Program-made: the position numbers and the translations under genes | Shown: positions 19,080-46,119 of the stretch, one piece after another | Numbering within the stretch: position 1 is the stretch's first letter | Layout: the number at the start of each line of letters is the position of its first letter | Assembly (NCBI GenBank): GCA_964016885.1 | Contig: OZ024743.1 | Coordinates: 42,098,001 to 42,162,000, forward strand | Source of the DNA: Eledone cirrhosa | Taxonomy: Eukaryota | Direction: 5' to 3' | DNA: 64,000 nt | The notes under the pieces: model-generated | The model's input: only the letters and a program-made list of their open reading frames with translations | What the model was told of the DNA's origin: nothing | Databases searched by the model: none

Positions 19080-19995
<916 letters not shown>

Positions 19996-20494
19996 CTTAA
20001 ACTTTCACTCGTGTAGTACATCTCAATTTTTTTCATTCTGAAAATAAAAACACATTTTCTTATATATATGTATATTTCACATTTTCTGCTGAGATAGCAA
20101 CGGAAGAAAATGAGAGTAGCAATATATTTTCTGCAAGAGTGTAGTCATGAATAAGTATTTATAAAGTTTGCTTACATGTTTTTCATTAAGGATTTATTAT
20201 TAACAAAGTCAATGCTTTTAGACAACACATATTTATATTTTGATAATATAGAATCTTGTATCAGAAAAATCTAAATATAAGTATGTTTCTTAAACATTTC
20301 TCACAAACGAACATAAATTATTTTGTAATCAATATAAACAGCTGAAAGCAGTACATTTAAAGAGAAGATTTTAAGACAGCTGGATACACCACTATCTTCA
20401 CTAAAACACATTTCACTTCAAATAAGCACTATATACATACCTGAAGCATCCAGGAATAACATAATATATATTTTATTGAAATAATTTATCCATG

Positions 20495-23507: not shown

Positions 23508-23576
23508 AAATAATTTTCAGATGGAGTGGTCGTGATTTTTGGCAAAAATCACGAGCACTCTATCTCAAAATTATTT
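23508..23576. repeat. About 33 bp arm hairpin / palindrome
   Basis: aaataattttcagatggagtggtcgtgattttt-ggc-aaaaatcacgagcactctatctcaaaattattt. Confidence 0.8.
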
Positions 23577-23720
23577 TTGAAAAGCATAAGAAATGCGCAA
23601 CCGGTAAAAACATAAAACTAAAACTGAATACTAACTAATACTTATTACTAATTTATACTTATTCCTAATTAAACTTTTTTTCACTGGGAAAAATATGTCA
23701 GCATTTTCTTTTCATTGTTA

Positions 23721-25516: not shown

Positions 25517-25753
25517 CAGATACCGGTTTATGGTGCATTCTTGTTGAGGATTATATCTAAAACAATGTACGACCCAACGTAAATAATTAAATTGTCACAC
25601 ACACATGGACACTTGCATACATCGCAATCATATGGGAGTAAAAATAGAAAATCGAAAATAGTAAAAACAAAGGGACAAACGTAGTAATTTAAAGGGTCGT
25701 GAAATATGGACGAATGGGCTTTGACAATTAACTAACCATTATATTTCCTCAGT

Positions 25754-25834
25754 AGTCACCCATCTAAGTACTAACTAGCCTCGACGTTACTTAACTCCGG
25801 TGATCGGACGAGACTAGTGTTTTCAGCGTGATAT
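25754..25834 (-). pseudogene. RNA5S: 5S rRNA fragment (about nt 11-92 of 5S)
   Basis: Reverse complement atatcacgctgaaaacactagtctcgtccgatcaccggagttaagtaacgtcgaggctagttagtacttagatgggtgac matches invertebrate 5S, including box A and box C regions. Confidence 0.9.
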
Positions 25835-25835
25835 C

Positions 25836-26012
25836 GGCAGTATCGGTAGTGGGTTGGACGCCATGCTTTCTAGCTTAGTTACGTCCCTTTACGGTCTGAG
25901 TTCAAATCCCGTCGAGGTTAACTTTGCCTTTAATCCTTACGGGGTCGATAAAATAAAGTACCAGTAATGTACTGGGTAATTGCTGGGCTTGTGCCAAAAG
26001 CAGAAACAATTA
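25836..26012 (+). mobile_element. tRNA-derived SINE, slightly 5' truncated, fused head-to-head to the 5S fragment
   Basis: Same family as 132-838. Confidence 0.9.
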
Positions 26013-29037: not shown

Positions 29038-29150
29038 TAAATTAAAATAAATAAGGCTGCACAGGCACCATGATAGCCCAGAGATTGATTCCGGTCGGAA
29101 TCAATCTCTGGGCTATCTTGGTGTCTGCTCAGCCTTATTTATTTTAGTTT
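29038..29150. repeat. About 55 bp arm near-perfect palindrome
   Basis: ..gatagcccagagattgattccg-gt-cggaatcaatctctgggctatc.. Confidence 0.9.
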
Positions 29151-29179: not shown

Positions 29180-29515
29180 AGGTTATATTTAATTTGTTGG
29201 GATTAAACAAGCTGAAAAATGTTTATAACTGATATAAATCACTCAACAAATTATTGGAGTAAATACAGAATATATTAATAAATGGAAACTATATTTATAA
29301 AAGCATATTTATTTTATTATATACATTTCAAGGGCAACCAAGGTAGCTCCAATCGTTAAGGATGTCTTTTTTCAGTGTATGTCAATATTTATTTATGAAA
29401 CAAATGTGTATTTTATCTGATGAAAGCGCATCATAATTTACCTTCGTTTCCCTTGAAATATATATAATAAAATAAATATGGTTTTATAAATATAGTTTCC
29501 ATTTATTATATATTG
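29180..29515. mobile_element. Non-coding pseudo-LTR-like unit with partial inversion (~29272-29333 vs ~29451-29512); homolog at ~45840-46045
   Basis: Reverse-complement arms plus shared sequence with 45840-46045. Confidence 0.7.
29409..29474 (+). ncRNA. Type I hammerhead (family F)
   Basis: TATTTTAT-CTGATGA-AAG..CTT-GAAA-TATATA-TA|ATAAAATA: 8 bp stem I, palindromic stem III. Confidence 0.75.
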
Positions 29516-29516
29516 T

Positions 29517-29564
<48 letters not shown>

Positions 29565-29697: not shown

Positions 29698-29733
29698 CTT
29701 TACCGGTTTCGCAGTTCTTCTGCTTTTCAAAAG
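29698..29733 (-). ncRNA. Minimal type I hammerhead, U3-A8 variant (family E)
   Basis: Reverse complement of 30569-30604. Confidence 0.72.
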
Positions 29734-30568
29734 TAGAGTTGAGATGGGGGGTCTGTGGTTTTTCTCACATCTGGTTGGTCTCTGAATGTTACTTGTTTTA
29801 TATGGAAAAAGTGGCTCGAAATGCCAGGTTTTTCGAGAAGTAATATGATTGGTTGGTCAATAATTATAATAAATTTCGCGCCAGTTCGCGTTACAATAGT
29901 TCTTCAAATAGGAGTGTGGGTGGGGGTTGTCACAGGTTGTTTTTAAAAAAAAAAGCCTTCGTGAGCCACCTTTTTTTAAGTAAAATGAAATTCAAACACG
30001 CACACACAACACACACACACACACACGCACACACACACAAGCACTCAAATAAACATACATATCTTTACTTTCTTTATTCAATAGAAAATCTGAAATCTGA
30101 CACCCCAGCGAACTAACCATATTCACTGAACCAGAACAATTCTCCCATCCCATTTCTCTTGAACATTATTTTTACTTATCATAAAATTCGCTAAAAAGGC
30201 TACAGAATGAATTTCCAAATAAGGGCACGAAAATTTAATGAAAACTTGTTCACGTGACAGCCATAATTTCATTTATAACCAATCAAATTACGCTTATTTA
30301 AAAAAAAAAGCCTTCGTGAGCCCCTTTTTTCAAGTAAAAAGAAATTCAAACACTCATATATGAAAAAACAACATGTGACAACCCCCCCTCTTATTTGAAG
30401 AACTATTGTAACGCGAACTGGCGCGAAATTTATTATAATTATTGACCAACCAATCAAATTACTTCTCGAAAAACCTGGCGTTTCGAGCCACTTTTTCCAT
30501 ATAAAACAAGTAACGTTCAGAGACCAACCAGATGTGAGAAAAACCACAGACCCTCCATCTCAACTCTA

Positions 30569-30604
30569 CTTTTGAAAAGCAGAAGAACTGCGAAACCGGT
30601 AAAG
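30569..30604 (+). ncRNA. Minimal type I hammerhead, U3-A8 variant (family E)
   Basis: CTT-[TTGAAAA]-GCAG aagaa CTGC-GAAA-CCGG-TA|AAG. Confidence 0.72.
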
Positions 30605-30669
30605 GAAACCAAATAAATATATATATTTTAAAAAAAAAAAGACTCCAGTTGGATTTTCGATTTCATCTT

Positions 30670-30754
<85 letters not shown>

Positions 30755-45076: not shown

Positions 45077-45322
45077 TGGCTTAGTGGTTAAAGCATTGGG
45101 CTTACAATCGAAAGGTTGTGAGTTCAATTCTCGGACCGGGTGATGTGTTGTTTGCTTGAGCAAGACACTTTATTTCACGTTGCTCCAGTTTACTCAGCTG
45201 TAGAAATGAGTACCGCCTGCCCGCCCAGCCAGTTGGATGGCGTTATCTTATGGCTAAAACAGCACGGCGTGCTGTGACCAGCGGCGCCGGTTGGCGCCCG
45301 TCAGACTGGTCAGTCAAGGTGA
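45077..45322 (+). mobile_element. Second SINE family copy with a different GC-rich tail
   Basis: Head and core match 44108; sequence diverges after gtagaaatgag. Confidence 0.8.
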
Positions 45323-45946: not shown

Positions 45947-46011
45947 TATTTTATCTGATGAAAGCACACCATAATTTAACTTGGTGTCCTTGAAATATGT
46001 ATAATGAAATA
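45947..46011 (+). ncRNA. Type I hammerhead, family F second copy
   Basis: TATTTTAT-CTGATGA-AAG-c-ACACCA..TGGTGT-c-CTT-GAAA-TATGTA-TA|ATGAAATA. Confidence 0.8.
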
Positions 46012-46119
46012 AATATGGTTTTATAAATATAGTTTCCATTTGTTAATATCGTATATATAAATATATATATCTATATGTATAATTTTGTATGTGTATATAT
46101 ATATACATAATTCTAATTT

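What the first reader, a model, noticed from the sequence alone, without database searches (positions are those of the whole stretch)
29698..30604. Second, unrelated U3-A8 hammerhead: a 36 nt minimal motif in both arms of a fold-back
Seen: CTT-TTGAAAA-GCAG aagaa CTGC-GAAA-CCGG-TA-AAG, identical in the two inverted arms, with a decayed third copy at 19899. No sequence similarity to family B is apparent. Inference: the U3-A8 core arose independently or is widespread in this lineage's PLEs. Stem I is only 3 bp, so activity would probably need the dimeric fold.
Basis: partly seen in the sequence, partly recalled or inferred. Interest (0 to 1): 0.72.

Follow-up and report, generated by a model that had tools for sequence, protein, structure and literature searches.

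The report
Minimal hammerhead of a Penelope retrotransposon
This 36-base motif sits in the terminal repeat of a very abundant Penelope-type jumping gene and is a known, stripped-down form of the hammerhead RNA, predicted to cut itself only slowly and in pairs; its mirror-image layout here is that element's ordinary insertion pattern.

Summary
In detail: identical 36-nt motifs lie at 30569-30604(+) and 29733-29698(-), with a decayed copy at 19899. The 33-nt core has 11,046 exact genomic copies and 19,237 within two mismatches. The parent is a young ~4.9-kb Penelope-like element (RT, Cys linker, GIY-YIG); the motif lies in its pseudo-LTR, 198 nt before ORF1.

U3-A8 is widespread here. Diverged families keep it with compensatory stem changes (231 matches vs 6 control), while C3-G8 on the same helix III is at chance (3 vs 3). 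This core, 3-bp stem I and dimer folding were published for Penelope hammerheads in 2014.

The fold-back supplies no dimer: the arms are on opposite strands and pair with each other. It is one insertion with a long and a short 3' end (30 of 33 pairs). Copy 5' ends pile up ~40 nt upstream at a TATA/initiator-like site, not at the cut site, so most templates were likely uncut. Cleavage is untested.

Earlier scan notes report the same two-ended arms for other hammerhead repeats in this genome; none matched this sequence. Verdict: new member of a known kind.

The parts
30569..30604 (+). Minimal type I hammerhead motif, U3-A8 core, palindromic helix III ACCGGU; predicted cut after A30601
29698..29733 (-). 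Identical motif in the inverted arm; predicted cut after the A opposite T29701
29553..29944 (-). Left arm: 5'-truncated pLTR copy, about 212 nt upstream of the core, with the long 3' end ('tail') running into (TA)n
   Evidence: 97% to L031 7101-7368, 94% to L090 6728-7048
29945..30676 (+). Right arm: 5'-truncated 3'UTR/pLTR copy with the short 3' end running into (CT)n(TA)n; no coding remnant
   Evidence: to L090 6377 onward and L031 7101-7295; tblastn of ORF1/ORF2 against the window empty
30500..30534 (+). TATAAAA (30500-30506) and initiator-like CCAGATG (30528-30534), 30 nt apart; candidate start site of the element's RNA (inferred; consensus motifs recalled)
   Evidence: 46 of 106 copy 5' ends fall 37-43 nt upstream of U3
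19860..20068 (+). Older short copy (81% identity) that starts at the same 5' site and has the long 3' end; decayed motif at 19899-19934
23574..23609 (+). More diverged relative: TTGAAAA core, stem II GCAT/ATGC (compensatory change against GCAG/CTGC), GAAA decayed to GCAA, CCGGTA kept

Best explanation
The motif is the minimal type I hammerhead in the pseudo-LTR of a young, very abundant endonuclease-bearing Penelope-like retrotransposon, and it likely cuts slowly and only as a dimer, through the palindrome ACCGGU. Shown: the parent element, the motif's place in it, between-family covariation and the geometry of the insertions. Inferred: the element's RNA starts about 42 nt upstream of the core, so the ribozyme lies in the 5' leader (cut site about +72, ORF1 AUG about +241). 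Inferred: the element's RT primes at both ends of a break in a (TA)n tract and starts at two fixed sites 110 and 176 nt downstream of U3, giving a head-to-head fold-back with one long and one short arm, as in this window. Most templates were likely uncut, so cutting would be a minor processing or damping step (it would decap the ORF1-RT message) rather than a requirement for copying. A partner would have to come from the same-strand repeat 4.7-5.0 kb downstream in tandem copies, or from a second RNA. The window's fold-back is a non-coding by-product; its read-through RNA is predicted to bury the motif in a long hairpin.
For: Parent: ORF2 hits RVT_1 and GIY-YIG above Pfam cut-offs, with CX4CxxC linker; 111 scored matches at 97-100% identity. 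Same-strand motif pairs flank a full coding unit in 3 of 20 loci and 2 of 16. Covariation across 11 motifs: 92.7% of cells paired, 6 of 10 pairs change on both sides, 0 of 500 shuffles reach this, slid controls 24-48%. A family with ORF2 about 40-65% identical carries the U3-A8 motif at the same place. Cofold of the 4-bp form gives stems I, II and intermolecular ACCGGU at -22.5 vs -7.5 kcal/mol per monomer. Ends: 30 of 33 inverted pairs are long+short, none long+long or short+short (18 of 21; 12 of 12). 5' ends: 46 of 106 at -37 to -43, against 365 matches for copies broken near the cut site and 19,237 with the core. Literature: U3-A8 min-HHRs, opposite-strand pairs 100-700 bp apart, no monomer cutting and low dimer cutting (PMC4209133); two internal RT start sites and uncut RNA as main template in an anole PLE (PMC11167929).
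Against: No cleavage or RNA data. Monomers fold no better than shuffles (z -0.04 to -1.28); the 36-mer alone misfolds; in the cofold of the window's 3-bp form stem I is not formed. The 11 aligned motifs are related, so the shuffle control overstates significance. The TATA/initiator and sharp 5' end were not seen in the second family (4 of 18 ends at 22-34 nt, the rest scattered), and an RT stop could also explain the pile-up. Exceptions to long+short: 2 short+short among 11 pairs in the intact-ORF set and 1 long+long among 14 in the first set, at loci that look like separate or nested insertions. The 106 copies were chosen for an intact core, so ends inside it are excluded by design. A small excess of ends at the cut site exists (16 of 54 places).
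Confidence: 0.8

Rival explanations
1. The ribozyme cuts efficiently in vivo and defines unit-length or circular templates, as proposed by Cervera and de la Pena.
For: Among copies broken near the site and joined to AT-rich flanks, 16 of 54 distinct places end exactly at the cut, the largest class (hand count of the 100 rows listed of 289); 11 of 30 fetched loci likewise. Tandem copies exist. Copying from a circle would also carry the motif intact.
Against: Such copies are about 2% or less of the family (365 matches, an undercount because of the pattern's exclusions, vs 19,237), and the hand count's 100 listed rows is flat (16 at the site, 15, 11, 14, 11 at neighbours). T/A microhomology or an RT stall at the fold explains the excess equally. 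The dominant 5' end is about 72 nt upstream of the cut; a circle would not give that end.
Confidence: 0.1
2. The fold is kept for a non-catalytic job (protein binding, promoter or leader structure) and does not cut in this lineage.
For: Stem I is only 3-4 bp with no distal helix; monomer fold is weak. In the anole PLE the hammerhead was dispensable for insertion and no RNA-seq ends mapped at its cut site.
Against: Catalytic-core letters and a cleavable NUH triplet are kept across families whose stems have turned over; other PLE hammerheads do cut in vitro.
Confidence: 0.08
3. The motif is a chance look-alike in a repeat, or the fold-back itself is the functional dimer.
For: No hammerhead among the Rfam rows shown; weak monomer fold.
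Against: 0 strict hits in 200 shuffles; covariation; a fold-back RNA holds one sense and one antisense copy, and all 36 nt pair with the other arm (-573 and -599 kcal/mol).
Confidence: 0.02

Closest known systems
Minimal hammerheads (min-HHR) of metazoan Penelope-like elements, Cervera and de la Pena 2014, PMC4209133 (main text parts 1-2 of 4; supplement file 2 part 2 of 3; file 1 not held)
   Same: Type I, in the pLTR, short stem I, G10.1-C11.1, palindromic helix III, predicted dimer, thousands of truncated copies, opposite-strand pairs. The U3-A8 variant is described (about 1,300 hits in Schistosoma mansoni); row S. mansoni(4) has core UUGAAAA and a 3-bp stem I.
   Different: No extra base after A9; stem II only 4 bp; helix III has a 2-nt CG insertion; U3-A8 is the fixed state of this helix-III class in this genome; one near-identical family of about 19,000 copies rather than heterogeneous families.
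PAc (Poseidon, Anolis carolinensis), Frangieh et al. 2024, PMC11167929 (part 1 of 4 and passages)
   Same: Two internal RT start sites that match the two genomic 3' ends ('tail'); AT-rich target; hammerhead near the ORF start; uncut RNA as main template.
   Different: Here the two ends are about 66 nt apart and lie upstream of ORF1; the hammerhead is in the leader, not across the start codon; core is U3-A8; the element has a Cys linker and two ORFs.
Neptune/Nematis-type EN+ PLEs as described in Craig et al. 2021, PMC8557442 (passages; figures not seen)
   Same: RT then CX2-5CxxC linker then GIY-YIG; (TA)n targets; partial tandems; inverted 5'-truncated copy.
   Different: Separate 400-aa ORF1 overlapping RT-EN in the -1 frame. 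The Fig. 1 legend lists ORF1 with a frameshift as an option for some PLEs, but which clades I could not see. A killifish Neptune has a short non-overlapping ORF1 (PMC12602865, passages).
Non-LTR retrozymes (Li, Clavereau and Pollet 2026, bioRxiv 10.64898/2026.07.22.740005, part 1 of 5)
   Same: Type I hammerhead in a short non-coding unit linked to PLE pLTRs.
   Different: No head-to-tail array of short units here; the short copies are pieces of an autonomous element present in the same genome.

Membership tests
Type I minimal hammerhead of PLEs | Catalytic core (YUGANRA with 3-8 pair, GAAA, NUH) | tested here: met
   UUGAAAA, GAAA, GUA; U3-A8 in 11 of 11 aligned motifs, which were selected on that core
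Type I minimal hammerhead of PLEs | Helices I and II supported by compensatory changes | tested here: met
   2 of 3 stem I pairs and 3 of 4 stem II pairs change on both sides; outer stem I pair unpaired in 5 of 11
Type I minimal hammerhead of PLEs | Short palindromic helix III allowing a dimer | tested here: met
   ACCGGU self-duplex -8.3 kcal/mol; dimer cofold
Type I minimal hammerhead of PLEs | Located in the pLTR of a PLE | tested here: met
Type I minimal hammerhead of PLEs | Self-cleavage after position 17 | not testable with these tools
   needs an assay; copy ends give only a weak hint
EN+ Penelope-like element | RT followed by GIY-YIG endonuclease | tested here: met
   PF00078 E 5e-07, PF01541 E 7.6e-05, both above cut-off
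EN+ Penelope-like element | Partial tandems, inverted 5'-truncated copies, optional tail | tested here: met
EN+ Penelope-like element | Single ORF | tested here: not met
   400-aa ORF1 plus 775-aa stop-to-stop ORF2 in the -1 frame in 18 of 20 loci, first Met at 163
Neptune clade | CX2-5CxxC linker before GIY-YIG and (TA)n targets | tested here: met
   CGRSNCGTC; (TA)n flanks; the linker is shared with Nematis
Neptune clade | RT phylogeny | not tested
   no reference PLE proteins were fetched
Non-LTR retrozyme | Head-to-tail array of short non-coding units each with a hammerhead | tested here: not met
   same-strand neighbours are 3-5 kb apart; short copies are solo or inverted pairs

The most novel reading that the evidence does not exclude
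The hammerhead's GUA cleavage triplet doubles as the 5' splice donor (CCG|GUAAAG) of a 97-nt leader intron ending at the polypyrimidine tract and UGUAG, so each transcript is either spliced into an uncuttable ORF1/frameshifted RT-EN message or left unspliced as a cuttable copying template: a splicing-versus-self-cleavage switch in a two-ORF Penelope element. Basis: it is the first donor-like GT after the extreme 5' end, and the best acceptor-like AG lies downstream in both families examined (consensus recalled, no scoring model). Against: no genomic copy shows the exact join, no such joint among those listed in contigs of unknown kind, the acceptors of the two families do not align cleanly, and some other U3-A8 motifs have CUA or GUC triplets. 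One search for it in print gave one paper, whose passages do not describe it.
Probability: 0.15. Interest if true: 0.65.

Novelty: new member of a known kind. Interest (0 to 1): 0.3.

Why it matters
What hammerheads do for Penelope elements is still open. This family is a good test bed: about 19,000 near-identical copies, many intact RT-EN frames, two fixed 3' ends and one sharp 5' end. The copy ends already indicate that most copied RNAs were uncut, which matches the single in-vitro study. The lineage-wide U3-A8 core with turned-over stems is natural evidence that the 3-8 pair is exchangeable and that C3-G8 descriptors miss whole families. None of this is a new kind of system.

Tried and rejected
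Rfam scan: no hammerhead among rows shown. RNA evidence: no RNA holder listed; contigs of five runs of unknown kind were laid and show the same two 3' ends and a rise in depth near the 5' site, but say nothing on expression or splicing. Spliced genomic copies: 2 matches, both joins at a short shared word rather than at GT-AG. Within-family conservation: the first count (194 copies) was discarded because most loci were chosen for an exact core; the second (72 copies) is inconclusive. TATA/initiator in the second family: not seen. Fold-back as cis dimer: rejected. Retrozyme array: rejected. ORF1 has no Pfam family (best E 0.25); the Atlas could not read it, so it stays unexplained. Lunse et al. 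2017 and Arkhipova et al. 2017 were not held; I saw only the title of the first in reference lists, and both may bear on U3-A8 activity and on ORF1 frameshifts. Searches for 'C3U G8A' gave 0 papers and for octopus plus Penelope plus hammerhead one paper. Passages of PMC3846280, PMC6765202, PMC6431247, PMC6155905 and PMC11014351 were read. No tree was built, so independent origin of U3-A8 is open. A-to-G editing of the arms was not tested.

Full report
Observation. The motif is as described: identical 36-mers at 30569-30604(+) and 29733-29698(-), inside arms that are 96% complementary over 232 nt, and a third copy at 19899 with three damaging changes. It parses as a type I hammerhead: stem I CTT/AAG, core U3 U G A A A8 A, stem II GCAG/CTGC, GAAA, helix III A-C-CG-G-U, cut after A30601. 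A strict descriptor finds 2 hits in the window and 0 in 200 shuffles. Rfam lists no hammerhead in the 150 rows shown of 189, and monomers fold no better than shuffles.

Abundance and parent. The 33-nt core occurs 11,046 times exactly and 19,237 times within two mismatches, with 0 for the reversed control. Walking upstream from genomic copies reaches an RT and GIY-YIG frame, confirmed by Pfam, with a CX4CxxC linker of the kind Craig et al. give for Neptune and Nematis PLEs (passages). All 111 scored protein matches are 97-100% identical, so the family is young. Same-strand motif pairs 4.7-5.0 kb apart flank a full coding unit in 3 of 20 loci and 2 of 16. In tandem copies ORF1 begins 198 nt after U3. 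The window itself holds no coding remnant.

U3-A8 is the lineage's standard state. A pattern that excludes this family's stem II finds 231 further U3-A8 motifs against 6 in the control, with different stems. The same pattern with C3-G8 gives 3 against 3; a C3-G8 hammerhead with another helix III does exist in the genome. A second PLE family, ORF2 about 40-65% identical, carries its U3-A8 motif at the same place. On 11 aligned motifs 92.7% of cells pair and 6 of 10 pairs change on both sides; no shuffle reaches this and slid controls give 24-48%. These rows are related, so this is support, not a probability. An older relative in the window (23574-23609) shows a compensatory stem II change. Variation within the family is too low to test selection (72 copies).

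Stem I and the dimer. Of 106 sampled copies 60 have CCTT/AAGG (4 bp) and 37 the window's 3-bp form. In loci with intact ORF2, 34 of 35 motifs have the 4-bp form, but those loci were picked with a protein from a 4-bp copy. Cofolding two 4-bp copies gives the dimeric hammerhead at -22.5 kcal/mol against -7.5 per monomer; for the 3-bp form the ACCGGU duplex and stem II form but stem I does not. The fold-back cannot supply the partner: a read-through RNA carries one sense and one antisense copy, and all 36 nt pair with the other arm.

What the fold-back is. Of the first 100 exact matches listed, 46 lie in head-to-head pairs within 5 kb. Thirty of 33 have one arm ending about 110 nt and the other about 176 nt downstream of U3; none has two long or two short ends; the two arms almost always share the stem I form. 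Exceptions in two other sets (2 of 11, 1 of 14) look like separate or nested insertions. The window fits: long end at 29553, short end at 30676, both in simple repeats. Inverted truncated copies and an optional tail are standard for PLEs (passages), and in the anole element the tail lies between two internal RT start sites. I infer one RNA primed from both ends of a break.

5' ends. Forty-six of 106 copies begin 37-43 nt upstream of U3, inside CCAGATG, with TATAAAA 30 nt further up; contig depth rises at the same place. I read this as the start site (consensus motifs recalled; not seen in the second family). The cut would then fall at about +72, in the leader. Copies broken near the cut number 365 matches (an undercount). 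A hand count of the 100 listed rows is flat; among AT-joined ends 16 of 54 distinct places stop exactly at the cut (hand count), which microhomology or an RT stall could also give. So most templates were likely uncut, as reported for the anole element.

The parent's coding layout. ORF2 is 775 aa from stop to stop in 18 of 20 loci, its first Met is at 163, and it overlaps a 400-aa ORF1 in the -1 frame across T TTT TTA. The second family has the same run at the same junction in most of the 11 copies printed. Programmed frameshifting is inferred; the slippery motif is recalled. Craig et al. list ORF1 with a frameshift as an option among PLEs (legend only).

Comparison with what is known. Cervera and de la Pena describe minimal PLE hammerheads, the U3-A8 variant, opposite-strand pairs, no monomer cutting and low dimer cutting (parts 1-2 of 4); their supplement has a PLE-linked row with core UUGAAAA and a 3-bp stem I. 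A review repeats the dimer view (passages). Lunse et al. 2017 was not held. The motif is therefore a new member of a known kind; cutting itself is untested.

Earlier scan notes. In this genome 1,096 notes fit 'hammerhead Penelope'; two describe the same two-ended mirror arms for retrozyme-like repeats, and one argues for cut templates, which prompted my 5'-end test. No note matched this sequence or the combined words.

Verdict. Real, explained and largely ordinary; interest 0.3. The boldest open reading is that the GUA triplet is also a splice donor (probability 0.15).

Noticed in passing
L077, L090, L031, L042, L130-L142 (parent elements): EN+ PLE with a separate 400-aa ORF1 (no Pfam family, N/Q-rich C-terminal half) overlapping RT-EN in the -1 frame at T TTT TTA, kept in two families about 55% identical; likely programmed frameshift.
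   Followed up: partly
   Followed up: no
window 14162; L129, L133, L138, L143, L144: Another hammerhead family with C3-G8 core and 6-bp stem I (TAGTCA/TGACTA), inserted in (TA)n; the window copy is decayed.
   Followed up: no
window 29270-29500 and 45947-46081: Repeat with a CTGATGA...GAAA layout and an 8-bp AT-rich outer stem; weak stem II; abuts the fold-back on its left.
   Followed up: no
window 29045-29144: Near-perfect 100-nt palindrome.
   Followed up: no
window 25727-25844 (-) and 45077-45134 (+): Rfam 5S rRNA match (45 bits, above cut-off) and partial tRNA match in repeats; probably SINE heads.
   Followed up: no
G000:C2:142044654-142312052: Six similar U3-A8 motifs within 270 kb, about 12-200 kb apart; possibly a large tandem unit.
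   Followed up: no
L149-L168, L199-L248: A large class of 150-220-nt copies running from the putative start site to one of the two 3' ends behaves like a SINE made from the element's own leader.
   Followed up: partly
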